64,000 nucleotides of DNA from Candidatus Shapirobacteria bacterium (GCA_016188545.1 JACPHO010000001.1:483324-547323), one strand, 5' to 3'; counted from the first letter of the stretch, positions 1-32,694 are shown. Notes: generated from the sequence alone by a model not told the origin. Translations and numbers: made by a program.

Positions 1-215
1 ATTAGGTCAACAAAATATGACAATTCATCGATCTTTTCAGCGATAGCATCTGCAAAATAGACTTTATTTTTCCGCTTTAGGGTAGTGACTACATTAAGTA
101 GATCTATTGGAGGCAGTACTACACCAGCTCCAGCGCTGTACCCCAAGCCACCAGCCATATCGCGATTAATCGACTTATCCATTGATGGTGGATTTAGTAC
201 TAATATCCGTTTCAT
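1..215 (-). CDS. B12-binding-domain radical SAM protein, N-terminal fragment (gene continues beyond window start)
   Basis: Reverse translation from ATG at 213-215 gives MKRILVLNPPSMDKSINRDMAGGLGYSAGAGVVLPPIDLLNVVTTLKRKNKVYFADAIAE. This resembles the N-terminal cobalamin-binding module of class B radical SAM enzymes. It is not in the ORF track because it is truncated by the window edge. Confidence 0.4.
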   Translation of the reverse strand, partial: MKRILVLNPPSMDKSINRDMAGGLGYSAGAGVVLPPIDLLNVVTTLKRKNKVYFADAIAEKIDELSYFVDL

Positions 216-1930
216 TATTTTGGTTGTCCTTTTAGCTGTACTAACGCCTCTTGTGCTTGACGATACTGTGGATAAGCTTTAACTAACCTTTCAAGTACAT
301 CTATCGCTTGTTGAGTCTCGTTACGTTGTGACAGTACTACGGCCAAGATATAGTGAGTGGTTGGATCATTCGGATTTACCTGCAGCGCAGTCTTGGCGTG
401 GTTAAGGGCACTATCTAAGTCTTTTTCAATCAAGTCGATATTTATCAAGCTTAAGTATGTCTGGTACAAACTAGGATTATAGTACAGTGCAGTGTTGTAG
501 CTTTGTCGAGCCAGATCATTTCTTCCTATTTTAAAGAAAATATTCGCTCGGTTATGATAGGCATCCGCATAGTTTGGTTTAATTACTGTAGATTGAGAAA
601 ACCCCTTCACTGCATCATCGTACTGCTTAAGCTTATCGTAGTCATCCCCGATATTGTTCCAAGCGTTATGTGAGTTCGGAGACACTTGGCAGGTGTTAAC
701 CCACAACTTGTGATTTGTCGTCCAATCAATGTTTCGCAGCATTAGTCTGACACTAAAAAGTGACAATATTACCACCATAATTCCGCCCGTCATCAGCTTT
801 ACTTTTGTAGACATCTCCTGAAGAATTAAAGCTAAGAATAGACAAAATCCCAAGGAACCAAGATAAGCATACCTTTCCGCCACCAACCAGCTAACTTTTA
901 CTGGCATCATCGAGGGCAGAATCGCTACAAATATAAACATTAGTGCAAAAGCATGTCGCTTATCTTTCCAGGCAAAATAACCTATTAGTGCTAAGTAAGT
1001 TAGCAGTATTGCCCAATTTAACCAAATCGGGAAAACATACATGGTGTGATATAGAGTCAAGTCAATCGGCACCCACAAAAGTTGTAAGTACTTTGCCACT
1101 CCGGTAGGGTACTGAAAAAACGGATTATAAAACAGACTATCTGAAGCGTTTACACCAGCGTTAACTACACCTACCCTGGTCATAATATGGGGCCAAACAA
1201 TCACCGCAATTATAGCCATCGGAATTAAGGTTAAAGGCCAATACTTCCACCACTTGTTTCTTCGGATATCAATTCCCGCTAACCACAGATACAAGGGGAT
1301 TATTAAAAACAAAGAAAAAGGTCTGGGATTGTCAGTTAGGAAACCCAACACAAATGATCCGAATGTCCCAACTAAGTACCAGATGTTTTCTGTCTCAACA
1401 AATTTAACAAACCAAATCATCGATAAAAGCACATACATCGCAATCAGTAGATAAGGCTTTCCCGATATCCAAGTCACTGCTTCCACATGAATTGGATGGA
1501 CTGCAAACAAGCTCAAAGTGATCCACGCTACACCACGACCAAACAAGTGATAAATAAAAACAAATGCCAAGTAGCAAGTAATCAAATACAAGAACAAACT
1601 ATTCAAATGAAAGGGGAGCGGCACCACCCCAAACATCTTTGCCACCACACTATTTATAAAATAGGTCGAGGCCCCGCCACGAAATGCATATGACCACTTA
1701 GTTATTTCCGGATTATTAAGAATTGTGGCATAGTCATCTGAGACAAAAGCTGCATTCATTCCATTGGCAAATACCGCCACAACAGCCACAGTTATCATTA
1801 CCAAAAATATCCAATTTTCTTTGATTATTTTAATTATCTGCAAAGGCTCACCCCCAAATGCTGGACTCAAATTTACTCCCACCTTCAACTCAGAAAGCTT
1901 ACGTATCTTTTTTAGCCTTTTTTGAGACAT
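215..1930 (-). CDS. Polytopic membrane protein with C-terminal TPR repeats (putative PMT/GT-C-like glycosyltransferase)
   Basis: 571 aa with about 10 hydrophobic helices in the N-terminal 400 aa. The C-terminal region has clear TPR-like repeats (AYHNRANIFFKIGRNDLARQSYNTALYYNP ... ALQVNPNDPTTHYILAVVL). Confidence 0.55.
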   Translation of the reverse strand: MSQKRLKKIRKLSELKVGVNLSPAFGGEPLQIIKIIKENWIFLVMITVAVVAVFANGMNAAFVSDDYATILNNPEITKWSYAFRGGASTYFINSVVAKMFGVVPLPFHLNSLFLYLITCYLAFVFIYHLFGRGVAWITLSLFAVHPIHVEAVTWISGKPYLLIAMYVLLSMIWFVKFVETENIWYLVGTFGSFVLGFLTDNPRPFSLFLIIPLYLWLAGIDIRRNKWWKYWPLTLIPMAIIAVIVWPHIMTRVGVVNAGVNASDSLFYNPFFQYPTGVAKYLQLLWVPIDLTLYHTMYVFPIWLNWAILLTYLALIGYFAWKDKRHAFALMFIFVAILPSMMPVKVSWLVAERYAYLGSLGFCLFLALILQEMSTKVKLMTGGIMVVILSLFSVRLMLRNIDWTTNHKLWVNTCQVSPNSHNAWNNIGDDYDKLKQYDDAVKGFSQSTVIKPNYADAYHNRANIFFKIGRNDLARQSYNTALYYNPSLYQTYLSLINIDLIEKDLDSALNHAKTALQVNPNDPTTHYILAVVLSQRNETQQAIDVLERLVKAYPQYRQAQEALVQLKGQPK

Positions 1931-2013
1931 ATATTCATTTATTCTATTAGATTTTTTAAACTTGTGGACAGTTTAATCTCACTATGACAAAGGCGCATGT
2001 TTTTTTCTTTGGG

Positions 2014-2913
2014 TCATAGTTTCCACTTAGGAGTATATCCTAAATATCTCTTTGCCTTTTCGTATGTAAAGTTCATGTTTACCACTTCACCAAGACCAAA
2101 CAATCTAAGGCAAAATCGGGGGATTCTGATCTTTAGATAACTCTTTCCGCACCTCTTGGACATTTCTTCAAGATAATCACCAGTGGTAATACTTTCTCCA
2201 GATAATATATATTCTTCACCTAGTTTTCCTTTTTCCAGTGCCAGAATTATCCCCTCGGCTACATCACGAACCTCCACAAAATTCATAATCCGACCCCGAT
2301 CCCCTACAGCCGCCATCAATCCACCAGGGATCCCACCTCCCACATTGTTCCATAGCCATTTTATTATTGGGTTAGTCGTCATAAACTGTTCTCTCCCAAA
2401 AATCTCATGGTCAATTACTGTACTTGGCATTACCGTGATTACTTTTCGTTTTGAGTTACGGGTTAACTTCAATGCCAGAAGTTTTGAACGAATATATTTA
2501 TCAACTCCACCGCTTTTTTTAAGATCCCACTTTTCGTCCCTAGCATCTTTTCCGGTATCACTGTAAACCACTACGCTAGAAGCGAGCAGTAGTCGGCTAG
2601 TTTTTGGTGCTAATTTTAGTATTGTCTTTACACTATCTATATTTACGTCCTTAAATGTTTTCCAGGGAAGGCTACTATCCATTTCTACGGCCAAGTGGAT
2701 TATCCCATAAGTATTGGTAAACAATTTATATAGAATTTTATTATCATTTATATCTCCTCGGATAATCTCCAGTTTCTCATCCATTTGCCAATGAAAACTT
2801 GATTCATTCCTCACAAATGCCCGAACAATACAACCTCTCTCCAAAAGCTTTTTAACCACCACTTTTCCGATCACTCCGGATGCTCCAGTTACTGCCACAA
2901 TTCTTTTTTCCAT
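2014..2913 (-). CDS. NAD-dependent epimerase/dehydratase family protein (SDR)
   Basis: N-terminal Rossmann motif VAVTGASGVIGKVVVKKLLERG. Length 299 aa. Confidence 0.7.
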   Translation of the reverse strand: MEKRIVAVTGASGVIGKVVVKKLLERGCIVRAFVRNESSFHWQMDEKLEIIRGDINDNKILYKLFTNTYGIIHLAVEMDSSLPWKTFKDVNIDSVKTILKLAPKTSRLLLASSVVVYSDTGKDARDEKWDLKKSGGVDKYIRSKLLALKLTRNSKRKVITVMPSTVIDHEIFGREQFMTTNPIIKWLWNNVGGGIPGGLMAAVGDRGRIMNFVEVRDVAEGIILALEKGKLGEEYILSGESITTGDYLEEMSKRCGKSYLKIRIPRFCLRLFGLGEVVNMNFTYEKAKRYLGYTPKWKL

Positions 2914-2952
2914 TCCGTTATTTTAACTTAATTTTTTAAATCCATCACTTAA

Positions 2953-3026
2953 TGTTCTATGGCACTGAGCACTAGAGTTCTATCTTTCAAAAGTTCTATA
3001 GCTCTAACGTTCTATCGTTCTAACAT
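2953..3026 (+). repeat. Degenerate array of 8-bp subunits (GTTCTATG/TTCTATAG/CTCTAACG...), about 9 units, upstream of wzm
   Basis: Direct reading: gttctatggcactgagcactagagttctatctttcaaaagttctatagctctaacgttctatcgttctaaca. It belongs to the same family as the elements at 29-33 kb. Confidence 0.6.
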
Positions 3027-3039
3027 ATATAATAGATTC

Positions 3040-3840
3040 GTGATGTCTCTACTCAAAGAAGTTCGTGCAGTCGTCAAATGGCGAGAGCTGTTGTGGCAGA
3101 TGGTCAGCCGCGAGGTCATAGCCCGATACAAGCAGTCCATTCTCGGATATTTTTGGGTTATCCTAAACCCCCTAGCTCAGATGTTGGTCATGTCCTTTGC
3201 CTTCTCTATCATCATGCGCATTCCTACCAGCGCCTCATCCAATATCCCTTATTCAATTTTCCTATTTGTTGGTTTACTTCCCTGGACATTGTTTTCAAAC
3301 TCTCTCAGTTCTTCCTGTGCCTCTTTGGTTGGATCGGCACCACTTATTACCAAAATCTATTTTCCTCGAACAATTTTAGTTATCGCCACTACTATTGCCA
3401 AAATAATTGACTTCTTATTTGCCCTGTCGATTCTTGTTTTCTACATGGTCGCATACCAAATACCAATATCATTCAATATACTTTGGGTAATTCCAATTTT
3501 TATTATCCAACAAATATTTACTTTGGGATTATCACTCTTCTTAGCAGCAGCAAACCTACTATATAGAGATATTCAATATCTTTTAACACTGATACTTACA
3601 CTTTGGATGTACCTTACCCCTATTTTTTATCCTATAGATATTGTTCCAGAAAACTATCGATTTATTTTTCAGTTCAATCCTTTGACTGTAATAGTTAACG
3701 CTTATAGGCAAACTATCTTGGGTAATGGTGCTCCAAACTTTACAAGTTTATCTATTGCCTTTATTCTTTCGATTATTTCACTTTTAATAGGACTTTCATA
3801 TTTCAAATCCAGGGAAAAAATATTTGCAGATAATATTTAG
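3040..3840 (+). CDS. ABC-2 type polysaccharide/teichoic acid export permease (Wzm/TagG/KpsM family)
   Basis: LLKEVRAVVKWRELLWQMVSREVIARYKQSILGYFWVILNPL is the classic ABC-2 permease N-terminus. Six TM helices. Start moved to the internal Met; the upstream part of the track ORF covers the repeat array. Confidence 0.8.
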   Translation: MMSLLKEVRAVVKWRELLWQMVSREVIARYKQSILGYFWVILNPLAQMLVMSFAFSIIMRIPTSASSNIPYSIFLFVGLLPWTLFSNSLSSSCASLVGSAPLITKIYFPRTILVIATTIAKIIDFLFALSILVFYMVAYQIPISFNILWVIPIFIIQQIFTLGLSLFLAAANLLYRDIQYLLTLILTLWMYLTPIFYPIDIVPENYRFIFQFNPLTVIVNAYRQTILGNGAPNFTSLSIAFILSIISLLIGLSYFKSREKIFADNI

Positions 3841-3905
3841 TCACGTCATTGCGAGCAAAGGAATGAGTGTGACAATCTTTGGACCTCTGCCCATTACTAC
3901 ACAAA

Positions 3906-4088
3906 TCACTTTCCAAACAATATCCCATATTCGACATTACCTTCGTCAACTCTTATCTGTGCAATATCAATAGCATCACCAATATTATTCCCTTTCCCAA
4001 GTTTAGCAATCACTCTACCGTCACTTGCACAACGCTCCACAACAGTGAATCGCTTTCTAGATATGTAAATATAGTTATCTGTACTCAT
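3906..4088 (-). CDS. Small hypothetical protein immediately downstream of the Fic/Doc gene (possible partner)
   Basis: 60-aa ORF whose start abuts the stop of the Fic/Doc gene. No recognisable motif. Confidence 0.2.
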   Translation of the reverse strand: MSTDNYIYISRKRFTVVERCASDGRVIAKLGKGNNIGDAIDIAQIRVDEGNVEYGILFGK

Positions 4089-4089
4089 A

Positions 4090-5064
4090 TTACTTTATTA
4101 AATTGACCACCAGTTTTACTAAAATATCTTTCTCTTTAGGTTCACTAGTGGCTATTAAGAGTGCCAACGCCACCAAAGCACGATCATTAATTTTCTTTTG
4201 GCCTACTGTATTCAACAATAATTTGTTTTGATTTAAGTAATATACAAACAACATTGAACCAATCCGTTTATTACCGTCAATAAACGGATGATCTTTAATT
4301 ACCAAATAAAGCAGGTTCGCAGCTTTTTCCTCTATGCTTTTATATAAATACTTACCACCAAATGTCTGATCAATTGTTCCGATAACAGATTTCAACTTAT
4401 CACCATTCATCTGACCAAAAAATTCCGTCAACTTACCCTCATAGTTCCGTTTGATGCTTTCGATGAATTTGATAGCCATTGTATACGACAGCTCAAATCC
4501 TGTCTTGTAGCTTAGTTCTCCTAGTGTCAGCTTACCCTCATCGTATTTTGTTAAAAGATATATAGAATTTGTGTAATCAGAAATCAGTTCCAACATCGAA
4601 TCGATTTCACCTTTTAGCTGAGGAAGTTTGGACTTTGATGTAATCAAACCAACACTTTGCTTAAGCATCTCTAGTTGGTGATTCTGCTCAAGCAATCTTT
4701 TCTTGTTAACAACATATCCTTTTACTAAGTAATTTTTCAGTATCTTTGTAGCCCATATCCTAAACTTTGTACCTTGTACTGAATTAACCCTGTATCCCAC
4801 AGAAATAACCACGTCTAGGTTATAAAAATTAGTCAAGTAGCTCTTTCCGTCACCAGCAGTTATCCGGTATTTCCGGATAACTGACTTTCTATCTAGTTCT
4901 TTGTCATCAAAAACTTTTAAAGTATGTTCATTTATGGTTCGAACATCCTTACCAAATAGTTCCGCCATTTGTTTCTGACTAAGCCAAACTGTTTTTCCAT
5001 CAAAACTAACTCTGAGATCAATGTTTCCATTTGGTGATTTATATAACACAATTTTGTTTTTCAT
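4090..5064 (-). CDS. RhuM-family / Fic-Doc domain protein
   Basis: N-terminus MKNKIVLYKSPNGNIDLRVSFDGKTVWLSQKQMAELFGKDVRTINEH is typical of the RhuM virulence protein family. C-terminal HPFIDGNKRIGSML matches the Fic/Doc active-site motif HxFx(D/E)(G/A)N(G/K)R. The NKR form is the Doc-type variant. Confidence 0.7.
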   Translation of the reverse strand: MKNKIVLYKSPNGNIDLRVSFDGKTVWLSQKQMAELFGKDVRTINEHTLKVFDDKELDRKSVIRKYRITAGDGKSYLTNFYNLDVVISVGYRVNSVQGTKFRIWATKILKNYLVKGYVVNKKRLLEQNHQLEMLKQSVGLITSKSKLPQLKGEIDSMLELISDYTNSIYLLTKYDEGKLTLGELSYKTGFELSYTMAIKFIESIKRNYEGKLTEFFGQMNGDKLKSVIGTIDQTFGGKYLYKSIEEKAANLLYLVIKDHPFIDGNKRIGSMLFVYYLNQNKLLLNTVGQKKINDRALVALALLIATSEPKEKDILVKLVVNLIK

Positions 5065-5224
5065 AACTAATACTAAACCGAAGAATACCCGAAGTCAATA
5101 AACCAAACCCGAATCCATACCGAACTTGTTAAGATGTTAAAATGTTATGAACAATAGATTTGCCACACAACACACGCTAAGTAACAACCCATGAAAAATC
5201 AAACAACAAATCCACATCCAAACA

Positions 5225-5260
5225 CAGAACTTTGGAACGTTAGTTCTATGGATCTTTAGA
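5225..5260 (-). repeat. About 32-bp four-subunit repeat element, reverse orientation, immediately upstream of the four-helix-bundle gene
   Basis: Reverse complement reads ttctaaag atccatag aactaacg ttccaaag. Same architecture as the element at 5615-5649. Confidence 0.6.
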
Positions 5261-5620
5261 ATGAAATTTATAGACTTAAAAATCTGGGAAAAAAGTCATA
5301 AGCTGACGATTGAAATCTACAAACTCTGTAAAAAATTACCAAATACCGAAACGTTCGGAATAATATCACAGATTCAAAGATCGTCTTCATCGATCCCTGC
5401 CAACATTGCCGAAGGATTTGGAAGAAAAGGCAAGAAAGAGTTTATTCAATTTTTATACCAGGCGAAAGGATCACTTACCGAAACAGAATATTTTTTAATA
5501 TTAATCAAAGATCTAAATTATGTTGATAATATTGGAATCGAGAAATTAATATTTGAATACGAAATATTAGCTAAAATGCTAAACTCCTTTATCACTCAAC
5601 TCAAAGCAAAAAATGTCTAA
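5261..5620 (+). CDS. Four-helix-bundle protein (23S rRNA intervening-sequence protein / Avd-like family)
   Basis: 119 aa. KSHKLTIEIYKLCKKLP...FGIISQIQRSSSSIPANIAEGFGR...EFIQFLYQAKGSLTETEYFLIL matches the conserved TIGR02436/PF05635 four-helix-bundle pattern. Confidence 0.65.
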   Translation: MKFIDLKIWEKSHKLTIEIYKLCKKLPNTETFGIISQIQRSSSSIPANIAEGFGRKGKKEFIQFLYQAKGSLTETEYFLILIKDLNYVDNIGIEKLIFEYEILAKMLNSFITQLKAKNV

Positions 5621-6368
5621 AGATCTAAAGCCCCAACTCTCTAAAGCTCATGATCAAACGGTTATATCGTTTGATCATGTCACCAAAGATTTTTCCCGAA
5701 ACAATCAAAAAACTTTCAAAGAATTCCTTCCCGCCCTTTTCTATGGTGAAAAAACAGTCGACAGATTCACGGTTTTTAGCGATATCTCTTTTGAGATCAA
5801 AAAAGGGGAGTGTGTTGGTATTATCGGTCCAAACGGAAGTGGCAAATCAACTATTCTCAAACTCATTGCCGGTGTCATGAGTCCCAATAAAGGCAAAGTC
5901 CGTGTCCACGGTAAAGTCTCCCCCCTTATCGAGCTAGGAGCCGGTATGCACCCCGAACTTACCGGCAGGGAGAATGTCTATCTCAATGGCGCAATTTTAG
6001 GACTTAGCGGTCAGCAGATTAACAATAATTTTCAAAGTATTTTAGACTTTTCCGAACTATCCGAATTTATCGACCAACCTGTCAAACACTATAGTTCCGG
6101 CATGTACATGCGACTTGCTTTTAGTATTGCCATCCACGTTGATCCCGAGATACTTATCGTCGACGAAATTCTCGCAGTAGGAGACTCTGCTTTTCAGGCA
6201 AAGTGTTTTGCCAAAATGGAAGAATTCAAGAAAAACGGTGTAACCATAATTTTTGTCTCCCACTCAATGGAACACATAAAATCTTTTTGCAGTCGAGCTA
6301 TTTATCTTAATCAACACCAGATCCAGCATGATGGTCCCCCTGAAGCTGTCATATCTAAGTACTGCTAA
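5613..6368 (+). CDS. ABC transporter ATP-binding protein (Wzt/TagH-like) of the polysaccharide exporter
   Basis: Walker A GIIGPNGSGKST, signature YSSGMYMRLAF, Walker B ILIVDEILAVGD. Partner of the ABC-2 permease at 3040. Confidence 0.85.
   Translation: MSKDLKPQLSKAHDQTVISFDHVTKDFSRNNQKTFKEFLPALFYGEKTVDRFTVFSDISFEIKKGECVGIIGPNGSGKSTILKLIAGVMSPNKGKVRVHGKVSPLIELGAGMHPELTGRENVYLNGAILGLSGQQINNNFQSILDFSELSEFIDQPVKHYSSGMYMRLAFSIAIHVDPEILIVDEILAVGDSAFQAKCFAKMEEFKKNGVTIIFVSHSMEHIKSFCSRAIYLNQHQIQHDGPPEAVISKYC
5615..5649 (+). repeat. About 32-bp four-subunit repeat element at the 5' end of wzt
   Basis: tctaaag atctaaag ccccaact ctctaaag, encoding MSKDLKPQLSKA. It forms an imperfect inverted pair with the element at 5225-5260, flanking the four-helix-bundle gene. 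Confidence 0.6.
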
Positions 6369-6376
6369 AATAAACT

Positions 6377-6598
6377 ATGTCACACGACCGGATACTTACA
6401 AATCAACTTGATCCCAAACAGGCAATCACCATCATTAGTAGACTAACCCAGACCATAAACAAGCAAAACAAACAGCTGTTAATGGAAATTAACAACATCC
6501 AGCTACAAATATCTTATTTCGAAAATAATATTAAACTAATAAAATCATCAAAATATTACCATTTTATAAACTTTATAAAATCAACCATTCTCAGTTAA
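6377..6598 (+). CDS. Small hypothetical protein
   Basis: 73-aa ORF in a different frame from the downstream GT2. Coiled-coil-like and Asn/Ile rich. Weak. Confidence 0.2.
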   Translation: MSHDRILTNQLDPKQAITIISRLTQTINKQNKQLLMEINNIQLQISYFENNIKLIKSSKYYHFINFIKSTILS

Positions 6599-7908
6599 TG
6601 AAAAAGACGTTCACCCAGGTGTATTCTCAATACATTACTCAAAAGAAACTAAACGCTAGCCTCAAAAAAAAAATATGGCGTCTACGTACCCACCGCTTTA
6701 TCGCTTGGAATGACTTTAACAAGCTAACCTCCGTCATATCATTCAGATTGTGGCAACAGTACAATCACTTCAAAAAGTATCTTGTAAAACCGGTTTTTCT
6801 ATTCCCCTTTAAATCAATTTTCATCGTAGTTTACCTAGCCATCACCATCTGTCTATATTTTATATATAAGATATTCCACTTCTCATCCTCTTTTTTCTCA
6901 AAACCATTACCACTTTCATCACTCCAGGCCGAAATTGATGGTGTCAGTTTCATAATACCTACCTGGAACAAGGCAAAGATGGTTACCGACTGTGTCAAGA
7001 AACTGTCTTCTATTCTCGAAATAGAGTCGCCAAAAGTAAAAAAAGAAATCATTATCGTCAACAACGGTTCAGCCGATAATACAATCAAATCAATTACCTC
7101 GATCAATAGCTCAATTTCAATTAGATTAATCAATCTTCCCAAAAATGTCGGATTTGCCTCCGCCATTAATCTTGGAGTCATTGAATCCATGTACAACTAT
7201 ATCTATCTGATGAATAACGACATGATTCCCACCCCCACTTTTCTTTCGTCAATCATCAATTTTGCCCAAGCCAAAATTAACCAAGGCTCAAAATTCTTTG
7301 GCATATCATCTCAAATATTCTTTTTTGATAAGAACAAAAGACGGGAGGAATCGGGTAAAACATATATATATCCCTATTTTGGAATTATCCGCGCTGGTCA
7401 CATCGTCAACTCCAGCAACCTCCAAGACCCCTCGCCCACTTGTTATCCCGGGGGTGGTTCATCACTTCTCAACAAGCATATTTTTCAAAAACTTGGCGGC
7501 TACAATTCCACTATTTACCGGCCTATGTATTGTGAAGATTTGGACCAGGGATTTCTAGCATGGCAATACGGTTTTCCTTCATATTTTGTTCCCCAGTCAC
7601 ACATCATCCACCATCATCGTTCTAGTTCCAAGAAGCTAACTACCGACCCATCACATTATTTGTTCAAAAACTTACTCACATTTAGCCTTAAAAACATTAC
7701 CAGCTTCTCCCTCTTTCTAAAACATATTTTTTACTTTCCGATTTTATCCATAATAGACGATCATCATTTTAACTATCTACTTGGAGTGTTACCTATAATA
7801 CCGTCAATTTATCTCTACAAAGTTCGCTCGCTAAAATACAAATACATGCATCAAGACACCAGTCTATTTGACTTTATAAAATTTGAAGTAAAAAATGATC
7901 AATTCTAA
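6598..7908 (+). CDS. Glycosyltransferase family 2 (GT-A) with N-terminal membrane region
   Basis: FIIPTWNKAKMVTDCVKKLSS...IIIVNNGSADNT is the GT2 motif. Confidence 0.7.
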   Translation: MKKTFTQVYSQYITQKKLNASLKKKIWRLRTHRFIAWNDFNKLTSVISFRLWQQYNHFKKYLVKPVFLFPFKSIFIVVYLAITICLYFIYKIFHFSSSFFSKPLPLSSLQAEIDGVSFIIPTWNKAKMVTDCVKKLSSILEIESPKVKKEIIIVNNGSADNTIKSITSINSSISIRLINLPKNVGFASAINLGVIESMYNYIYLMNNDMIPTPTFLSSIINFAQAKINQGSKFFGISSQIFFFDKNKRREESGKTYIYPYFGIIRAGHIVNSSNLQDPSPTCYPGGGSSLLNKHIFQKLGGYNSTIYRPMYCEDLDQGFLAWQYGFPSYFVPQSHIIHHHRSSSKKLTTDPSHYLFKNLLTFSLKNITSFSLFLKHIFYFPILSIIDDHHFNYLLGVLPIIPSIYLYKVRSLKYKYMHQDTSLFDFIKFEVKNDQF

Positions 7909-9103
7909 AAAAAACAAACTTTTTTTGGCGGGTGGGGTATTCCCTTTTCCCAAAAGTAGTGGAGGTGCCACCCGCTTTTACCACACCATAAAGAACTTAA
8001 GCAAATATTTTGATATTTACCTCTTACTTTTCAAACCAAGTTACTATCGTCTATCACCAGCCGATACCCGCTTTCTAAAAAAGCACACTCGATATTACGA
8101 AATCATTGTTACAACTGATCACCAATCCCAGGACTCATTTTTTTCCACTACCAAACCATATTGGTTTTCCCCTTGGTACCATCCCGACGCTCTGTTGGCT
8201 ACTCGTCGGATCATATTCCAGAACAAAATTAAATTTGCTCAAATTGATACAACCCAAATAGCTTATCTCATCGACTCCATCCCCCGAACTGTTTTTTCGA
8301 TATTCGTTGCTTACGATATCTGCACTACTTCATTTATCCGTCGCCTAGCCGAAGTCAAAAATCTGAAAACATATATAGTTCATTACATCCGCTACCTTGA
8401 AATATATTTTTATGAACAAAAATATTTAAAGTTGTTTAACAAAATTGTAGTTATGTCGCCTGTTGACAGAAAAGAAGTCCGTCGTCTTTTCGGTGTTACC
8501 AACAGTATAAGCGTCCCGAACGGTATAGAATCAATCAACTTCCTCAATAAATCAGTTGACCCATCTCCCCTCAAAATTGGCTTGCTCGGGTCATTCAGCC
8601 ATCCTCCCAATCGTTTTGCTTTTTCTTACTTTTTGGAAAATATCGCTCCGCTTTTAAATAGACAGAAAATTAACTTTAATTTATATTTAGTCGGTAATAA
8701 TTCCACCCCTGAGATACAGAGTATAGTCAACAATATCTATCCTCAGATTTATTCCAAAATACATAACCTAGGGTTTATAAAAAGTACCAAAAGTGTCTTT
8801 AAAGGATTTGATTGTCTTTTTGCCCCCATATTTTCAGGTTCCGGTACCCGAGTCAAAATTATTGAGGCCCTCAGTTTTGGTATACCAGTTATCACCAGTC
8901 CCATTGGTGCCGAAGGCATCAAAACGAGCAACCCGTTTTTGACAGTGGCACACACTCCCCAAGAATACGTCAATGCTACCAAAAAGCTTGCATCCATCAA
9001 CGTTCCCTCAAACCTTATAAAGTTAAAAACATTTCTAAAGCCATTTCTTTGGTCAAGTATTTTTGACAAATACTATCAACAAGTCCACCACCACTTTAAA
9101 TGA
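7895..9103 (+). CDS. Glycosyltransferase family 4 (GT-B)
   Basis: C-terminal FAPIFSGSGTRVKIIEALSFGIPVITSPIGAEGI matches the GT4 EX7E region. Confidence 0.7.
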   Translation: MINSKKNKLFLAGGVFPFPKSSGGATRFYHTIKNLSKYFDIYLLLFKPSYYRLSPADTRFLKKHTRYYEIIVTTDHQSQDSFFSTTKPYWFSPWYHPDALLATRRIIFQNKIKFAQIDTTQIAYLIDSIPRTVFSIFVAYDICTTSFIRRLAEVKNLKTYIVHYIRYLEIYFYEQKYLKLFNKIVVMSPVDRKEVRRLFGVTNSISVPNGIESINFLNKSVDPSPLKIGLLGSFSHPPNRFAFSYFLENIAPLLNRQKINFNLYLVGNNSTPEIQSIVNNIYPQIYSKIHNLGFIKSTKSVFKGFDCLFAPIFSGSGTRVKIIEALSFGIPVITSPIGAEGIKTSNPFLTVAHTPQEYVNATKKLASINVPSNLIKLKTFLKPFLWSSIFDKYYQQVHHHFK

Positions 9104-10164
9104 GACCGTTTCAAACCAACCCCATAATTACTTACTCAAAAAAAACATTTATGGGGTTGTGGGATTTTATATCTAATCATAAAAGAATAAAGTTTCTTTT
9201 CGCACCTTCAAACGACACCATGGTCTACTGGATGTATCCAATTTATAAGAATCTACCAAATAGTTCATTCATTGTTTTTCCAAAAATTAATGAAAATGCT
9301 GAAAAGGTATTGCAGGATCTAAAACTAGATTACTATAAATACGAGGTTGGCATCACCAAACAAATACGACCTCAGATTGTCATCGTCGGCAATGACTGGG
9401 GTTGGTCAGAGATGGATCTAATTAAAGAGTGTCATGAGACTAGGATTACCACTGTTGGGATCATGGAAGGACTGTGTAAAATCGAAGAAATAATTCCCTA
9501 CAAAACAGTCGACTATTTTTTCTCACTTGGTGTTATTCCATCAAAAGACCTTCACTATTTAAAAAATAAAGTCAATACCGGTAATCCAAAATTCGACAAA
9601 ATTAAAAAAACACCATTTCCAAAAACCCAACGAGTGTTGATAAACTCAAATTTTGCCTACGGTAACCAAAAAGATAAGAGTCACATCTGGATTGGTGATA
9701 CTACAACAGTATGCAAAAAAAATTCAATCGATTTTTTAATTGCCAAGCACCCCCGAGATGAAGCTAAAATTAACAAAAGTTTGCCATCAGTTTTATCTAA
9801 CGCCTCAAAAATTTCCAAGTTAATCCGTAACAGCACCATTGTAATATCCAGGAGCAGCACCATCATTTACGAAGCGATAAAGGCAGGCAGAATTGTAATT
9901 GTCTACAACCTCTTTAATGAAACAATTGGCCCACTCGAACATCAAAAAAACAGTCACCTATTTTTCAAAACAAATTCAAAAACTCAACTTAATAACACCT
10001 TAAAACATGTTCTCCACTCACTAAAAAACTACGATTACACCATAAATAATCAAGAATACAACCTATTTATTAAAAACCATCTAACTACAAAATCCTCATC
10101 TGCGAAGCTATGTGTAAAGTATTTAAAAAAAATACTACAAAAAAAACTTCTTCAGTCTGGTTAA
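9100..10164 (+). CDS. Putative GT-B-like glycosyl/glycerophosphotransferase or capsule-biosynthesis-like protein
   Basis: C-terminal NSTIVISRSSTIIYEAIKAGRIVIVYN resembles the nucleotide-sugar binding half of TagF/Kps-type GT-B enzymes. Weak. Confidence 0.3.
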   Translation: MRPFQTNPIITYSKKTFMGLWDFISNHKRIKFLFAPSNDTMVYWMYPIYKNLPNSSFIVFPKINENAEKVLQDLKLDYYKYEVGITKQIRPQIVIVGNDWGWSEMDLIKECHETRITTVGIMEGLCKIEEIIPYKTVDYFFSLGVIPSKDLHYLKNKVNTGNPKFDKIKKTPFPKTQRVLINSNFAYGNQKDKSHIWIGDTTTVCKKNSIDFLIAKHPRDEAKINKSLPSVLSNASKISKLIRNSTIVISRSSTIIYEAIKAGRIVIVYNLFNETIGPLEHQKNSHLFFKTNSKTQLNNTLKHVLHSLKNYDYTINNQEYNLFIKNHLTTKSSSAKLCVKYLKKILQKKLLQSG

Positions 10165-11025
10165 CGGAAATATTTTTGTGCTATATTTAATTATTCTCGG
10201 CACCCGTGATTCGCGAACAACACCACTGTCAACCAACTTTAACAAATTGGTCTTTAGACACAATCTGTCGTATTCTTTTTTTAGCTCACCTTTTTTATAC
10301 AACACGTACCATGCCTTCCAGTGCCAACCAATGTTTGGATCGCCAAGAGGATTTTTCTCGTAGGAAGAGCCTCCATTTATCACTTTTTTTTCAAAATGAG
10401 CATACGATCTAATCGGAAAGTGGTGGATAAACAAATTTCTTAAAATCTGTTTTTCACTCATTTCAACATCTTTTACAAAATGATTACCATATGAAATTTT
10501 GCAAAACTTATTTGAAGTCACCACTTTAGGTGAGTATTCGTAGAGCAAAAACTTACTGCTTTTCATATCGTATAGACTATCGGGATATTTTAAAGGACAA
10601 GAAACAATGTATTTGAAATTGTCAAAATTAAAATCCAGAATCGTTTTTGTTGGTGGAGGAAGATAGTTAATTACATTAACATATCCAACACTATCTACTT
10701 GACCTATCAGTGTTTTTAAACTAGCATCCCTGCCTGCTGTCCACAACTCATCTGCATCAGAATGTATTAAATAGTCTGCACCATTTTCTATTTCAAGTTT
10801 TGCCATCCTACTTACCCACTTATCTTGCTCATAGGTATGTTTACTCTCAATTGTGTAGTCCAAATACTTCATCCTTTTATATTTTTCCAGAATCTCAACG
10901 GTTCCATCTACAGATCCGTTATCAGTTACTCTAATCCAATCAACACCCTGATTTAAATGATGACATATATTCGCCTCAAGGATATCCTCTTCATCCCGCA
11001 CCAACAAAGTCATTACCAGTTTCAT
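10135..11025 (-). CDS. Glycosyltransferase, GT-A fold (family 2-like)
   Basis: MKLVMTLLVRDEEDILEANICHHLNQGVDWIRVTDNGSVDGT matches the GT2 DXD region (HSDADELW). Confidence 0.55.
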   Translation of the reverse strand: MKLVMTLLVRDEEDILEANICHHLNQGVDWIRVTDNGSVDGTVEILEKYKRMKYLDYTIESKHTYEQDKWVSRMAKLEIENGADYLIHSDADELWTAGRDASLKTLIGQVDSVGYVNVINYLPPPTKTILDFNFDNFKYIVSCPLKYPDSLYDMKSSKFLLYEYSPKVVTSNKFCKISYGNHFVKDVEMSEKQILRNLFIHHFPIRSYAHFEKKVINGGSSYEKNPLGDPNIGWHWKAWYVLYKKGELKKEYDRLCLKTNLLKLVDSGVVRESRVPRIIKYSTKIFPLTRLKKFFL

Positions 11026-11040
11026 CTTCTCATTATATTA

Positions 11041-11937
11041 CTAAATATTAACCTGATCCTTATATAAGTACTGTTTTTCATAAATCTGAAAACAGTTTTG
11101 ACACAATTTCGGTGGAGTTCTATTTTCAATTTTACTCCTTAAATCATTATATTTTGAGTTAGTCCATATTTTCTCTAAACTAGATTCTAAAATATTTCCC
11201 ATAACACTTTGGCTAGTCAAATCATAACAACAAGGGACGACATCTCCATTCCACCTAATTGTCAATGTACTAATAATGTGATCACAAAAATTTGCTATCA
11301 GCTTACTTTTTGTCTTGTTTCTTCCGGGATATTCAGGCCACATATATGAATAATATGACTTAATTTCTATTTCGTCAGTCCAATCAGCAAATTTTTCAAG
11401 TATATTATTAGGCGAATAAATAACCTTTAAGTCTGTATTCCGACTCGGGACTTGAATATTATGAATAACAACTTCAACCTTTGAACCGCATTCTTTCTTT
11501 CTCTTAAGCAATTTAATAATTTGATTTGAAATCTGCAAAAAATCACTACCTCTTCTTATATTATTATTTTCGACGACAGACGAGCCATCTAGTGAAAATT
11601 CAATTCGAGACAATGGTGATAATAATATTTTTTCGATGATTTCATCAGTCATCAACGAACCATTTGTATTTAATTTGACAAACTCAGAAATAGTTGCCAC
11701 TTTATCTATCATGTAAAACAGATCTTTTGAAATTAATGGTTCTCCACCATGATAGAGTACAGCCGACTTAAATCTATAAATATTTATTTTGCTAAAGACC
11801 AAATCGAAAATTTGTCTCGACATAATACCTGCGCTTTTATTTAAACCAATTCCCACAGTACAATGCTGGCAACGAAAGTTACATAATCCGCTTGGTTCTA
11901 TTCTTATAACTATTGGCAGTATAAATTTTTTTTTCAT
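11041..11937 (-). CDS. Radical SAM protein
   Basis: CNFRCQHC is the CX3CX2C motif near the N-terminus. C-terminal Cys pairs suggest an auxiliary cluster. Confidence 0.75.
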   Translation of the reverse strand: MKKKFILPIVIRIEPSGLCNFRCQHCTVGIGLNKSAGIMSRQIFDLVFSKINIYRFKSAVLYHGGEPLISKDLFYMIDKVATISEFVKLNTNGSLMTDEIIEKILLSPLSRIEFSLDGSSVVENNNIRRGSDFLQISNQIIKLLKRKKECGSKVEVVIHNIQVPSRNTDLKVIYSPNNILEKFADWTDEIEIKSYYSYMWPEYPGRNKTKSKLIANFCDHIISTLTIRWNGDVVPCCYDLTSQSVMGNILESSLEKIWTNSKYNDLRSKIENRTPPKLCQNCFQIYEKQYLYKDQVNI

Positions 11938-12641
11938 CTTAGATGCAAAACGTGTGTATACGCTATTCCGTGACCATAATTATCACCCACAAGACCCAAT
12001 CCTTTAGTTGACCTTATTATCTTAAAACCGGATTTTTTTATTTTATCTACAAGTTTTTTCGGGGTCAAACTAACAGGATGCATTGGATTAGTTTCCTTAT
12101 GAATGTCGACCGATAGTAAAAATTCACCATCATCCTGCAAATACTTGTAGCAATTTTCCAAAACCTTATCTACATCAAACATATGGTCAAATACATTAAT
12201 ACACATAATAAATTTAACTGCACCTTCCAACTCTTTTATTGTCTTCTCAGCTGGTGCTGAAAATACTTTATAAGCATCATTCAAGTCATTCCAGGGTACA
12301 GTCTTAATAAAATCACTTCCCAGTGGTTCAATTCCTACAATCAAGGCATCGGTAAAAAACTTACTACGTAATTTTGAACCACATCCCAAGTCTATTATTA
12401 CCTGGCCTTTAAACATTGTTCTTTTGTACCCAAAACCTTCCATTAACTTTATTGTTTGTTCCATAAAACCTGCTGTATTCCGCCATTCATTCGTTTGATG
12501 AAAGATCAGTTCTCCCGGCTGAGCCTCCTTTTTCCAAGCTGTTTTTGCGATATTTTTCATAAATAATTCTACAACATCTGTTACTTTATACACAAATACA
12601 AGACAGTATCGGCATATAAAGTCGGGCTTTGAAAATACCAT
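11934..12641 (-). CDS. Class I SAM-dependent methyltransferase
   Basis: VIIDLGCGSKL glycine-rich motif I. Confidence 0.6.
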   Translation of the reverse strand: MVFSKPDFICRYCLVFVYKVTDVVELFMKNIAKTAWKKEAQPGELIFHQTNEWRNTAGFMEQTIKLMEGFGYKRTMFKGQVIIDLGCGSKLRSKFFTDALIVGIEPLGSDFIKTVPWNDLNDAYKVFSAPAEKTIKELEGAVKFIMCINVFDHMFDVDKVLENCYKYLQDDGEFLLSVDIHKETNPMHPVSLTPKKLVDKIKKSGFKIIRSTKGLGLVGDNYGHGIAYTHVLHLR

Positions 12642-14311: not shown

Positions 14312-14322
14312 AACTTGACTTC

Positions 14323-18497: not shown

Positions 18498-18504
18498 ATA
18501 ATAT

Positions 18505-32630: not shown

Positions 32631-32653
32631 TATGTTAAGCAAATAATTATTAT

Positions 32654-32685
32654 TTCTAAAGATCTATAGCACTAAAGCTCTAGAG
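32654..32685 (+). repeat. 8-bp-subunit repeat element (4 units), intergenic
   Basis: ttctaaag atctatag cactaaag ctctagag, just upstream of the GT4 start at 32695. Confidence 0.7.
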
Positions 32686-32694
32686 CACCAATCA

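What the first reader, a model, noticed from the sequence alone, without database searches (positions are those of the whole stretch)
3841..5660. wzm and wzt split by an insertion carrying a RhuM-Fic/Doc gene and a four-helix-bundle (Avd-like) gene flanked by inverted repeat elements
The ABC-2 permease (3040-3840) and its ATPase (5613-6368) are normally adjacent. Here 1.8 kb intervenes. It holds a minus-strand Fic/Doc protein with the Doc-type HxFxDGNKR motif plus a small downstream ORF, and a plus-strand 119-aa four-helix-bundle protein of the 23S-IVS/Avd family. The four-helix-bundle gene is bracketed by an inverted pair of the 32-bp repeat element (5225-5260 reverse, 5615-5649 forward). This looks like a small cassette inserted into the exporter operon, possibly a toxin-type addiction or defence module riding in a surface-glycan locus.
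Basis: partly seen in the sequence, partly recalled or inferred. Interest (0 to 1): 0.6.

Follow-up and report, generated by a model that had tools for sequence, protein, structure and literature searches.

The report
Selfish gene inserts split sugar exporter
In a Candidatus Shapirobacteria genome, the two genes of a surface-sugar exporter are separated by independent small insertions: a toxin-like Fic/Doc gene, and a four-helix-bundle gene enclosed by inverted runs of an 8-base repeat, a layout known from ribosomal-RNA intervening sequences that proved typical of this gene family in the genomes sampled.

Summary
Between them are a RhuM-Fic gene with the Doc-type motif HPFIDGNKR, a conserved 60-aa ORF, and a PF05635 four-helix-bundle (4HB) gene bracketed by an imperfect inverted repeat.

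It is an insertion. 23 Shapirobacteria relatives, including the closest, have wzm and wzt adjacent. About 20 others carry different small genes at the same junction: NYN, AbiE, GNAT, Fic or 4HB.

It is not one cassette. Fic with the small ORF, and 4HB, each occur alone in relatives. Only the 4HB gene lies inside the repeats.

The 4HB is not Avd. It scores 19 bits against a cut-off of 80, and no reverse transcriptase lies within 10 kb.

The repeat arms are arrays of about four octamers (AAAGYTCY). The predicted RNA stem encloses the ORF from ATG to stop, as in 23S rRNA intervening sequences.

In 14/14 related elements the downstream gene's ATG lies inside the 4HB 3' end, and the array is translated as its N-terminal extension.

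Across 78 4HB genes, 73% have tandem 7-9-nt arrays in a flank, against 3% of control genes. This includes Nostoc and Riemerella.

Solo arrays of the same octamer sit in frame inside glycosyltransferase genes. What the element does is inferred, not shown.

The parts
2959..3840 (+). wzm-like ABC-2 permease. The conserved protein starts at ATG 3043. An upstream in-frame ATG at 2959 adds an extension that contains an octamer array.
   Evidence: PF01061 E 1.9e-15. 68-84% identical to Wzm of Ca. Shapirobacteria MAGs.
2974..3021 (+). Forward octamer array (GTTCTAWN units) in the 5' extension of wzm.
3844..3878 (+). Copy of a second short dispersed element (cGTCATTGCGAG...GACAATCT) directly after the wzm stop codon.
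   Evidence: The same motif sits at the same spot in L041, is fused in frame to the wzt N-terminus in L034, and also occurs in L021 (twice), L087 and L107.
3906..4088 (-). 60-aa conserved ORF immediately downstream of RhuM-Fic. Function unknown; a possible partner or antitoxin.
   Evidence: Homologues in L034, L085 and L029. dN/dS 0.09-0.15. Model pLDDT 84.7 with strand-strand-strand-helix-strand topology and no PDB fold match. No Pfam, NCBIfam or PADLOC hit. Family of about 60 cluster representatives.
4090..5064 (-). RhuM N-terminal domain fused to a Fic/Doc domain with motif HPFIDGNKR.
   Evidence: PF13310 85 bits, PF02661 44.5 bits. PADLOC PDC-S23 E 3.8e-118 over residues 1-324. DOC_P1 33.2 bits, below its cut-off of 38.65.
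5070..5098 (-). Promoter-like site (TTGACT-17-TAGTAT) upstream of the Fic ATG.
   Evidence: This is a consensus match only; the total for the region is not above that of shuffled sequence.
5226..5260 (-). 5' arm of the 4HB element: a reverse-oriented octamer array that ends 1 nt before the 4HB ATG.
5261..5620 (+). Four-helix-bundle protein gene (23S rRNA IVS protein / S23p family).
   Evidence: PF05635 E 5.5e-39. TIGR02436 E 2.9e-38, Avd model 19 bits against a cut-off of 80. PDB 2GSC and 2RLD, each deposited with five chains. dN/dS about 0.09-0.10.
5611..5650 (+). 3' arm: forward octamer array. It overlaps the 4HB stop, contains the wzt ATG (5613), and is translated as wzt residues 1-13.
5613..6368 (+). 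wzt-like ABC ATPase. Its start overlaps the 4HB stop (ATGTCTAA).
   Evidence: PF00005 E 9e-23. TagH / Wzt-like NCBIfam hits, all below equivalog cut-offs. Overlap shown.
5647..5681 (+). Hairpin (CATGATCAAACG / CGTTTGATCATG) at the boundary between the array and the native wzt coding sequence.
   Evidence: I17.: -17.4 kcal/mol here. 4HB-filled sites average -9.0 kcal/mol against -1.8 for empty sites, p = 3.6e-5.

Best explanation
The junction between wzm and wzt is a recurrent landing site for small selfish genes in Candidatus Shapirobacteria. This genome carries three independent insertions there.

**1. A roughly 35-nt copy of a short dispersed element** directly after the wzm stop.

**2. An opposite-strand module: RhuM-Fic(Doc-type) plus a 60-aa ORF.**
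- It has its own promoter-like site.
- It is most likely a growth-arresting toxin or defence-type effector, and the small ORF may be its partner. This is inferred.

**3. An IVS-type element: a four-helix-bundle (S23p family) ORF that exactly fills the loop between two inverted arrays of about four octamers (AAAGYTCY).**
- Shown: the arms start at the ATG and at the stop codon.
- Shown: the 3' arm carries the start codon of the downstream gene inside the last codons of the 4HB ORF, and is translated as an N-terminal extension.
- Shown: in relatives that carry only the 4HB element (4HB-only relatives), the 5' arm supplies TAG stops in all three frames, including the stop codon of wzm.
- The element therefore fits between two cistrons without destroying either.
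- Inferred: in the transcript the arms pair into a stem of about 35 pairs, like the RNase III-processed stem of 23S rRNA intervening sequences. Translation through the 4HB ORF would open the 3' arm and so couple wzt translation to it.

The 4HB protein is under purifying selection. Its molecular role is unknown. The association is with the tandem arrays themselves, since a second class of 4HB genes has direct rather than inverted arrays.
For: **Insertion and hot spot**
- 23 relatives have wzm and wzt adjacent, with no arrays at the junction.
- About 20 relatives have the junction interrupted by NYN, AbiEi/AbiEii, GNAT, DUF5674, CofD, a Wzx-like gene, Fic or 4HB.
- The window's sister locus L009 is empty. 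Carriers are scattered across the Wzm+Wzt tree.

**Independent modules**
- Fic plus small ORF occurs alone in L034, and Fic alone in L054.
- 4HB occurs alone in 9 or more loci.
- Both occur together only in the window and L085.

**IVS-type architecture**
- Inverted arrays bracket the 4HB ORF in L015, L018, L026, L082-L087 and other loci, although the octamer sequence differs between genomes.
- Flank duplex z-scores are -2.7 to -9 in 14 of 15 elements.
- The MFE and centroid folds of 5215-5665 both close the ORF with the terminal stem.
- In 33 inverted-class elements, the median gap is 7 nt from 5' arm to ATG and 4 nt from stop to 3' arm, with a median of 35 pairs.
- The Coxiella IVS has a 28-bp terminal-repeat stem cut by RNase III and tandem heptamers directly before the S23p ATG (PMC4990558).

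**Start-codon donation:** 14 of 14 elements.

**Generality**
- 57/78 4HB genes have a periodic array in a flank, and 23/78 in both flanks.
- Among 700 control genes the figures are 23 and 0 (Fisher p = 1e-49 and 4e-25).
- The same layout is seen in Nostoc punctiforme pNPUN01 and a Riemerella plasmid.

**Selection:** dN/dS about 0.1 for 4HB and for the small ORF.

**Fic module**
- PADLOC PDC-S23 match at E 4e-118.
- Doc-type motif.
- RhuM-Doc fusions proposed as toxins.
- The L085 copy has a stop codon just after the catalytic motif.
Against: - There is no position-specific compensatory covariation between the two arms within one octamer family (own-own -23.2 against cross -22.1 kcal/mol). Complementarity could simply reflect two copies of one repeat family in opposite orientation.
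- The whole-region fold is not better than shuffles (z = -1.4).
- About 17-21 of the 78 4HB genes have direct, not inverted, flanking arrays, mostly of period 9. A stem therefore cannot be the universal requirement.
- Whether this organism has RNase III, and whether the RNA is processed, was not tested.
- No promoter-like site was found for 4HB and wzt downstream of the opposite-strand Fic module. How wzt is transcribed here is open.
- 4HB identity tracks host identity (Spearman 0.71). Most copies look vertically inherited, and mobility rests on the patchy distribution plus one incongruent locus (L018). The tree has no support values.
- Fic toxicity and any role of the small ORF are untested. 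The small ORF is missing next to Fic in L036 and L054.
Confidence: 0.6

Rival explanations
1. The 4HB protein and the tandem arrays form a two-part system analogous to RAYT and REP. The pentameric protein would recognise the repeat unit on DNA or RNA and spread, maintain or regulate the arrays. The gene sits between two arrays because they are its own sites.
For: - The same octamer occurs as 11 solo arrays in the window.
- Solo arrays with the unit of the local 4HB flanks are about 36 times denser in the same locus than in other loci (0.25 against 0.007 per kb).
- In L018 the array type follows the 4HB clade, not the host clade.
- Both direct and inverted flank classes exist, which suits binding sites better than a stem.
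- Arrays have about 4-6 units, and the solved homologues 2GSC and 2RLD are each deposited with five chains; PMC4990558 describes the Xanthomonas protein as a homopentamer.
- The protein is under purifying selection.
Against: - The 4HB fold has no known catalytic or recombinase motif.
- No binding data exist.
- Arrays also occur in loci with no 4HB gene in view (L029, L056, L022).
- The enrichment is driven by a few loci (L121, L092, L098).
- Co-inheritance alone would also make array type and 4HB type correlate.
Confidence: 0.18
2. The octamer arrays are ordinary simple-sequence repeats of a hypervariable glycan locus (slippage-prone contingency repeats or recombination scars). Their position around the 4HB gene is a by-product of both accumulating at permissive junctions.
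For: - Arrays sit in or before glycan genes (wzm, wzt, GT4, GT2).
- They behave as in-frame indels of 6-8 codons relative to homologues.
- An 8-nt unit would shift the reading frame when one unit is gained or lost.
Against: - Units are imperfect, with 2 of 8 positions variable, which disfavours slippage.
- The bracket is precise: arms abut the ATG and the stop.
- The bracket is repeated in 73% of 78 4HB genes from many lineages, against 3% of control genes.
- The orientation rule (reverse arm 5', forward arm 3') holds in the Shapirobacteria elements.
Confidence: 0.08
3. The 4HB gene with its inverted arms is a DNA transposon or MITE-like element. The arms are terminal inverted repeats used by a transposase encoded elsewhere.
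For: - Inverted termini are present.
- Distribution among relatives is patchy.
- One host/element incongruence exists.
- IVSs have been proposed as transposition remnants (PMC4990558).
Against: - No transposase lies within +/-10 kb.
- No target-site duplication is seen at the boundaries.
- The arms are degenerate tandem arrays rather than defined termini.
- A direct-repeat class exists.
- No close relatives were found in viral contigs.
Confidence: 0.07
4. Fic, the small ORF and 4HB form one functional cassette, an addiction or defence module moved as a unit.
For: The same composite order is found in the window and in L085.
Against: - Each part occurs alone at the same junction in other relatives.
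- The repeats enclose only 4HB.
- The genes are on opposite strands.
- In L085 both fic and 4HB are disrupted.
- PADLOC has no hit for the 4HB protein.
Confidence: 0.04
5. The arrangement is ancestral: wzm and wzt were always separated in this lineage. Alternatively, the 4HB gene is the Avd of a diversity-generating retroelement.
For: - 4HB identity correlates with host identity.
- PF05635 is the family to which Avd-like proteins are assigned (PMC10053308).
Against: - The closest relative and 22 others have adjacent genes.
- The Avd model scores 19 bits against a cut-off of 80.
- No reverse transcriptase or template/variable repeat lies within +/-10 kb.
Confidence: 0.02

Closest known systems
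23S rRNA intervening sequences that encode an S23p / PF05635 protein (Leptospira, Coxiella burnetii)
   Same: - Same protein family.
- The ORF fills the loop of a stem formed by terminal inverted repeats of about 28-35 bp.
- Short tandem repeats lie directly before the ATG (heptamer GACAGAT in Coxiella, octamers here).
- The element sits inside a transcribed unit without destroying it (PMC4990558).
   Different: - It lies between two protein-coding cistrons, not in helix 25 or 45 of 23S rRNA.
- The arms are degenerate tandem arrays.
- The 3' arm is translated and donates the downstream start codon.
- The ORF is under purifying selection, whereas the Coxiella ORF is decaying.
- RNase III processing is untested.
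Avd, the accessory variability determinant of diversity-generating retroelements
   Same: Four-helix-bundle fold family; the literature assigns Avd-like proteins to PF05635.
   Different: - Fails the Avd-specific model (19 against 80 bits).
- No reverse transcriptase and no TR/VR pair nearby.
REP sequences and their RAYT genes
   Same: - A single gene is flanked by inverted copies of a genome-specific short repeat.
- The same repeat is also dispersed as many solo copies.
   Different: - The protein is a small helical bundle, not a Y1 transposase.
- The repeats are tandem arrays, not palindromes.
- Many copies lie inside ORFs.
Rickettsia palindromic elements (own knowledge, not checked here), cyanobacterial short tandemly repeated repetitive sequences (STRR), and Xanthomonas/Nostoc heptamer repeats (PMC4692102)
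   Same: - Short repeats that insert in frame into genes or lie between co-directional genes.
- Genome-specific unit.
- Function unknown.
- Convergent pairs are noted in Xanthomonas.
- Nostoc punctiforme 4HB gene NPUN_RS33770 is flanked by inverted heptamer arrays.
   Different: No paper in the library searched links these repeats to PF05635 genes. The unit here is 8 nt.
Doc toxin of the Phd-Doc system, and RhuM-Doc fusion proteins / PADLOC candidate PDC-S23
   Same: - Doc-type motif HxFxDGNKR.
- RhuM N-terminal domain.
- Full-length match to PDC-S23.
- RhuM-Doc fusions are proposed as toxins in defence contexts (PMC3710099).
   Different: - 324 aa, against about 125 aa for Doc.
- No upstream Phd/YefM gene; instead a downstream 60-aa ORF of an uncharacterised family.
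- Below the DOC_P1 cut-off.
- No activity data.

Membership tests
S23p-encoding intervening sequence (IVS) of 23S rRNA | ORF of the PF05635 / TIGR02436 family | tested here: met
   133 bits against a cut-off of 33.8; 130 bits against 24.
S23p-encoding intervening sequence (IVS) of 23S rRNA | ORF enclosed by terminal inverted repeats able to form a stem | tested here: met
   34-nt arms, 74% complementary. Duplex -22.9 kcal/mol, z = -3.1. The stem is present in both the MFE and the centroid fold.
S23p-encoding intervening sequence (IVS) of 23S rRNA | Inserted in a 23S rRNA gene (helix 25 or 45) | tested here: not met
   It lies between wzm and wzt. No Rfam family matches 2800-6600.
S23p-encoding intervening sequence (IVS) of 23S rRNA | Excised from the transcript by RNase III | not testable with these tools
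   Needs transcript mapping or an in-vitro cleavage assay.
DGR accessory protein Avd | Reaches the Avd-specific model NF033474 | tested here: not met
   19 bits against a cut-off of 80.
DGR accessory protein Avd | Adjacent reverse transcriptase and template/variable repeats | tested here: not met
   No RVT family among the called genes within +/-10 kb. No long direct repeat pair nearby.
Doc toxin (Phd-Doc type II toxin-antitoxin) | Fic fold with Doc-type motif HxFx(D/N)(A/G)NKR | tested here: met
   HPFIDGNKR in the translation. PF02661 44.5 bits against a cut-off of 24.
Doc toxin (Phd-Doc type II toxin-antitoxin) | Reaches TIGR01550 DOC_P1 | tested here: not met
   33.2 bits against a cut-off of 38.65.
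Doc toxin (Phd-Doc type II toxin-antitoxin) | Upstream Phd/YefM-type antitoxin gene | tested here: not met
   No gene lies upstream of fic on its strand. The downstream 60-aa ORF has no Pfam, NCBIfam, PADLOC or PDB match.
Doc toxin (Phd-Doc type II toxin-antitoxin) | Toxicity neutralised by the partner | not testable with these tools
   Needs expression in a host.
RhuM family / PADLOC PDC-S23 | RhuM domain and a full-length match to the PDC-S23 profile | tested here: met
   PF13310 85 bits against a cut-off of 33.7. PDLC04965 E 3.8e-118, residues 1-324 of 327.
RhuM family / PADLOC PDC-S23 | Protects against phage | not testable with these tools
   PDC systems are candidates only.
Wzm/Wzt (TagG/TagH-type) ABC-2 glycan exporter | ABC-2 permease plus ABC ATPase, both intact | tested here: met
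   Pfam hits. Full-length alignment to relatives. NCBIfam equivalog cut-offs are not reached, so the substrate is unknown.
Wzm/Wzt (TagG/TagH-type) ABC-2 glycan exporter | The two genes adjacent or overlapping | tested here: not met
   1,772 bp apart here; adjacent in 23 relatives.
REP-RAYT system | Gene flanked by inverted copies of a genome-specific dispersed repeat | tested here: met
REP-RAYT system | The gene encodes a Y1 (IS200-like) transposase | tested here: not met
   The protein is PF05635 only.
Simple-sequence contingency (phase-variation) repeat | Perfect tandem units whose number varies between close strains | tested here: inconclusive
   Units are imperfect. Arrays differ from homologues by 6-8 codons. 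No near-identical strains were available for comparison.
IS / MITE with terminal inverted repeats | Transposase gene (or a known parent IS) and a target-site duplication | tested here: not met
   No transposase within +/-10 kb. No duplication at the boundaries when compared with empty sites.

The most novel reading that the evidence does not exclude
PF05635 four-helix-bundle proteins (S23p / '23S rRNA IVS proteins') and short tandem-repeat arrays of 7-9-nt units may be two halves of one widespread system.

- Each genome would carry a 4HB type matched to its own repeat unit.
- The 4HB gene sits between two arrays.
- Solo arrays of the same unit are seeded in frame into genes (in blocks of three octamers, 8 aa) and between cistrons.
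- The pentameric protein would recognise the arrays, with about one unit per protomer, to spread, maintain or regulate them.

The classical 23S rRNA IVS would then be one special case. The unexplained heptamer repeats (STRR) of Nostoc, and those of Xanthomonas, would be the same phenomenon.
Probability: 0.15. Interest if true: 0.85.

Novelty: new variant of a known kind. Interest (0 to 1): 0.62.

Why it matters
- The function of S23p / IVS proteins has been open since the early 1990s. The over-representation of 7-9-nt tandem repeats in several bacterial groups is also unexplained (PMC4990558, PMC4692102).
- This locus, and the 78-gene survey it prompted, tie the two together. 4HB genes are embedded in such arrays far more often than other genes. 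This holds in candidate phyla radiation (CPR) bacteria such as Shapirobacteria, in cyanobacteria and in Bacteroidota.
- In Shapirobacteria the element slots between cistrons. It donates a stop codon to the upstream gene and a start codon to the downstream gene.
- This gives concrete experiments: array binding by the protein, RNase III cleavage of the stem, and translational coupling.
- It is also a warning for annotation. N-terminal extensions and 8-aa loops in CPR glycan enzymes can be repeat-derived.
- The wzm|wzt junction is a defined hot spot where toxin and defence-like genes (Fic, AbiE, NYN) accumulate in very small genomes.

Tried and rejected
- **Avd / DGR reading:** rejected. The Avd model fails and there is no reverse transcriptase.
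- **Known RNA family over the region:** none. The only Rfam hit is a chance-level LhrC match at E 0.11.
- **Phage origin:** no relatives of the 4HB protein among viral contigs.
- **Other 4HB, Fic or small-ORF copies in the window:** none.
- **Fold of the small ORF:** confident model but no PDB fold match (best E 0.08, TM below 0.5). No sequence match in PDB. No Pfam hit for ten family members. The word-indexed search found only 3 homologues; the exhaustive search found 62.
- **RhuM-Fic against PDB by sequence:** nothing.
- **Fine-scale compensatory covariation between the two arms:** not found within an octamer family.
- **First periodicity detector (80% self-match):** too strict, so it was relaxed.
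- **First duplex-energy comparison against all ORFs:** only weakly discriminating (p = 0.017), because of composition differences and the direct-repeat class. It was replaced by periodicity and orientation-specific tests.
- **Promoter for 4HB and wzt:** none found by consensus scan.
- **Literature:** seven searches found no paper linking PF05635 genes to flanking tandem arrays in general. This covers only the library searched.
- **TAG stop codon of wzm as a mark of 4HB insertion:** holds in most carriers but not all. L083 and L085 have TAA.

Full report
**What is there**

- The window comes from an 89.5-kb metagenome contig.
- The same proteins are on record on an NCBI MAG contig of 563,806 bp named Candidatus Shapirobacteria bacterium.
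- Wzm relatives at 68-84% identity are almost all Ca. Shapirobacteria / Microgenomates MAGs.
  - an ABC-2 permease, 2959/3043-3840;
  - a minus-strand 60-aa ORF, 3906-4088;
  - a minus-strand RhuM-Fic protein, 4090-5064, with the Doc-type motif HPFIDGNKR;
  - a plus-strand PF05635 four-helix-bundle (4HB) gene, 5261-5620, E 5.5e-39;
  - an ABC ATPase, 5613-6368.
- The inverted pair is 5227-5260 / 5616-5649, 34 nt and 74% complementary.

**Is it an insertion?**

- I fetched 79 loci around Wzm relatives and mapped the window's proteins onto them.
- In 23 Shapirobacteria relatives, wzt starts 1-5 nt after the wzm stop or overlaps it, and no repeat is present. This includes the closest relative, L009.
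- In about 20 others the same junction holds something else:
  - NYN-domain genes in seven loci, with relics in L005 and L059;
  - an AbiEi/AbiEii pair;
  - a GNAT plus DUF4230;
  - DUF5674 pairs;
  - CofD-like and Wzx-like genes on the other strand.
- The junction also holds RhuM-Fic in L034 and L054, and 4HB genes in L015, L018, L026 and L031, plus L082-L091 from metagenomes.
- On a Wzm+Wzt neighbour-joining tree the carriers are scattered, and the window's sister locus is empty.
- The junction is therefore a hot spot, and the arrangement is not ancestral.

**One cassette or several?**

- Fic plus the small ORF occurs without 4HB in L034.
- 4HB occurs without Fic in at least nine loci.
- The small ORF occurs alone in L029. 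Fic occurs upstream of wzm in L036.
- Only the window and L085 have both. In L085 fic carries a stop right after its catalytic motif, and 4HB has a 1-nt frameshift.
- Directly after the wzm stop the window also carries a copy of another short dispersed element (GTCATTGCGAG...CAATCT). The same element is found at the same spot in L041 and is fused to the wzt N-terminus in L034.
- The 1.8 kb is therefore a nest of independent insertions.

**The 4HB element**

- The two 'inverted repeats' are arrays of about four octamers, AAAGYTCY.
- Twelve such arrays occur in the window, eleven forward and one reverse. None occurred in 20 shuffles.
- The reverse array ends 1 nt before the 4HB ATG. The forward array starts at the 4HB stop.
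- The same layout recurs around every Shapirobacteria 4HB gene examined, but with a different octamer in different genomes: TCTAACGN, CCAGCGAA / CTAGAGNN, CCAAAGNG / CTAATGNN, TCTATATG.
- Flank-to-flank duplexes beat shuffles in 14 of 15 elements, with z from -2.7 to -9.
- The MFE and centroid folds of 5215-5665 close the whole ORF with this stem.
- In 33 inverted-class elements, the arms end a median 7 nt before the ATG and begin a median 4 nt after the stop, with about 35 pairs.
- This is the anatomy of the S23p-encoding IVS of 23S rRNA. In Coxiella that IVS has a 28-bp terminal stem cut by RNase III and tandem heptamers directly before the ORF (PMC4990558).
- Here it sits in an mRNA operon. 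No Rfam family matches.

**How it fits between two cistrons**

- In 14 of 14 elements the first in-frame ATG of the downstream gene lies inside the last codons of the 4HB ORF. This gene is wzt, or NYN in L015. The overlaps include ATGA and ATGTCTAA.
- The forward array is translated as a 10-30-aa N-terminal extension.
- Empty sites have short native N-termini and no array.
- The reverse array carries TAG every 8 nt, and so in all three frames. In 4HB-only loci the wzm stop is the first of these TAG codons.
- A hairpin follows the 3' array at the start of native wzt coding sequence (5647-5681, -17.4 kcal/mol).
  - 4HB-filled sites average -9.0 kcal/mol against -1.8 for empty sites (p = 3.6e-5).
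  - Both sides of the stem change between genomes.
- From this I infer a chain of translational coupling, and possibly RNA processing. Neither is shown.

**Is the stem under selection?**

- Across octamer families, an element's own arms pair much better than arms from other elements (-27.4 against -12.4 kcal/mol).
- Within one family they do not (-23.2 against -22.1 kcal/mol).
- The complementarity could therefore come simply from both arms being built from the genome's own repeat unit.
- About 17-21 of 78 4HB genes, mostly with 9-nt units, have direct rather than inverted arrays.
- The robust rule is that 4HB genes sit in tandem arrays, not that they sit in a stem.

**Generality**

- A metagenome scan with a 4HB alignment gave 80 loci.
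- Of 78 distinct 4HB ORFs, 57 have a period 6-9 array in at least one flank and 23 have one in both.
- Among 700 control genes of 150 aa or more, the figures are 23 and 0.
- Neighbouring genes are co-directional in 76 of 82 cases. They are often glycan genes, but also sdhA/B and MacB/FtsX pairs.
- 4HB also lies between wzm and wzt in two distant organisms, L104 and L133.
- In cultured organisms:
  - the N. punctiforme pNPUN01 4HB gene is flanked by inverted heptamers (CAGGAGT / ACTCCTG);
  - a Riemerella plasmid copy is flanked by inverted octamers (AAGGTTCA / TGAACCTT).
- Plasmid hits are dominated by heterocystous cyanobacteria. From my own knowledge, this is the group known for STRR repeats.
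- I found no paper in the library searched that states this association.

**Solo arrays**

- The same octamer occurs in frame inside GT4 (28907-30121, five arrays), GT2 (30555-31484, two) and GT4 (32695-33804, one). It also occurs in the wzm leader and in one intergenic spacer.
- Against array-free homologues these are insertions of 6-13 residues, and three of them are exactly 8 aa, i.e. three octamers. The 29790 match is native sequence.
- In GT2 orthologues, an array in L029 is a 7-aa insertion relative to the window.
- The window array at 31090-31137 and the L056 array occupy the same alignment position, but each is in its own genome's unit.
- Solo arrays with the unit of the local 4HB flanks are about 36 times denser in the same locus than elsewhere.
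- In L018 the array type follows the 4HB clade rather than the host clade.
- These points motivate the more novel reading, a protein-plus-repeat system. They do not prove it.

**The Fic module**

- RhuM-Fic matches PADLOC candidate PDC-S23 end to end (E 4e-118). It falls below the DOC_P1 cut-off.
- RhuM-Doc fusions have been proposed as toxins in restriction-modification and defence neighbourhoods (PMC3710099).
- A promoter-like site precedes it.
- The 60-aa ORF is conserved, with dN/dS about 0.1. It models confidently as strand-strand-strand-helix-strand, but has no fold or family match. It is not always present next to Fic.
- Toxicity and any antitoxin role are inference.

**Verdict**

It is partly wrong: it is not one cassette, the 4HB gene is not Avd, and the repeats belong to 4HB alone.
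- The genes are members of known families.
- The 4HB element is a new variant of the IVS kind, placed in an operon with stop- and start-codon donation.
- The general link between 4HB genes and tandem arrays is the part that deserves follow-up.

Noticed in passing
window 29061-29108, 29321-29352, 29540-29579, 29640-29687, 30012-30051, 30562-30609, 31090-31137, 33337-33376 (plus intergenic 32650-32689): Solo forward arrays of the same octamer lie in frame inside three glycosyltransferase genes, giving peptides such as SKVPKLQSSKAL. Against array-free homologues they are insertions of 6-13 residues, and three are exactly 8 aa, i.e. three octamers. The unit that would read TAA in frame is always changed (CAA, CAT, AAA or TAT).
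   Followed up: yes
window 31090-31137 compared with L056 8878-8928 and L029 8270-8320: Orthologous GT2 genes carry an array at the same alignment position and of the same length, but each in its own genome's unit (AAAGTTCT against ACCAGCGC). This suggests either within-genome homogenisation of arrays or repeated insertion at one permissive loop.
   Followed up: partly
window 3844-3878; L041 about 1040-1090; L034 3695-3745; L021 1597 and 2799; L087 1365; L107 5392: A second short dispersed element (cGTCATTGCGAG - variable core - GAAGCAATCTC) sits at gene boundaries. In the window and in L041 it directly follows the wzm stop. In L034 it is read in frame as part of the wzt N-terminus.
   Followed up: partly
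window 5647-5681: A perfect 12-bp hairpin (14 pairs in the fold) lies at the boundary between the array and native wzt coding sequence. Equivalent hairpins with different stem sequences, changed on both sides, occur in other 4HB-filled junctions (L085, L026, L083) and are absent from empty ones. wzt residues differ accordingly (SFDH, RFGH, RFEN).
   Followed up: partly
L005-L059, at the wzm|wzt junction: NYN-domain genes (PF01936) are the commonest other insert at this junction, found in seven loci with decayed relics in L005 and L059. AbiEi/AbiEii, GNAT plus DUF4230, and DUF5674 pairs also occur. The junction behaves like a miniature defence or toxin island.
   Followed up: partly
L085 278-1249 and 1446-1804: The only other locus with the same composite order has a stop codon in fic just after DGNKRIG and a 1-nt deletion in an A-run of the 4HB gene. 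This is either decay of both inserts or errors in a low-coverage assembly.
   Followed up: partly
L123, L125, L132, L144, L161 and others: A second class of 4HB genes is flanked by direct, not inverted, arrays of 9-nt units such as AATAAACCC or CAATAAACG. These arms cannot form a stem.
   Followed up: partly
L163 (Nostoc punctiforme pNPUN01, NPUN_RS33770) and L165 (Riemerella anatipestifer plasmid, K6T44_RS09915): Annotated 'four helix bundle protein' genes in cultured bacteria show the same bracket: inverted heptamers CAGGAGT / ACTCCTG in Nostoc and inverted octamers AAGGTTCA / TGAACCTT in Riemerella. This links the family to cyanobacterial short tandemly repeated repetitive (STRR) sequences.
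   Followed up: partly
L018 2497-2535 and L026 1577-1616: An array in reverse orientation relative to the gene lies directly upstream of the TPR/glycosyltransferase gene start in two relatives. This mirrors the 5' arm of the 4HB gene. No such array precedes the window's TPR gene (215-1930).
   Followed up: no
L041 144-237: A long array of about 11 units of ATCTAYTY lies upstream of wzm in one relative. It is a different unit and much longer than the usual 4-6 units.
   Followed up: no
window 5098-5126 and 21914-21942: A 29-nt direct repeat (83% identical, ATAAACCAAACC...) links the spacer upstream of fic with a distant site in the window.
   Followed up: no
window 1-20000 and L001: The surrounding glycan locus is unusual. 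It holds several radical-SAM / SPASM and B12-binding radical-SAM genes, methyltransferases, and an MBOAT plus AlgX-like pair next to the exporter.
   Followed up: no
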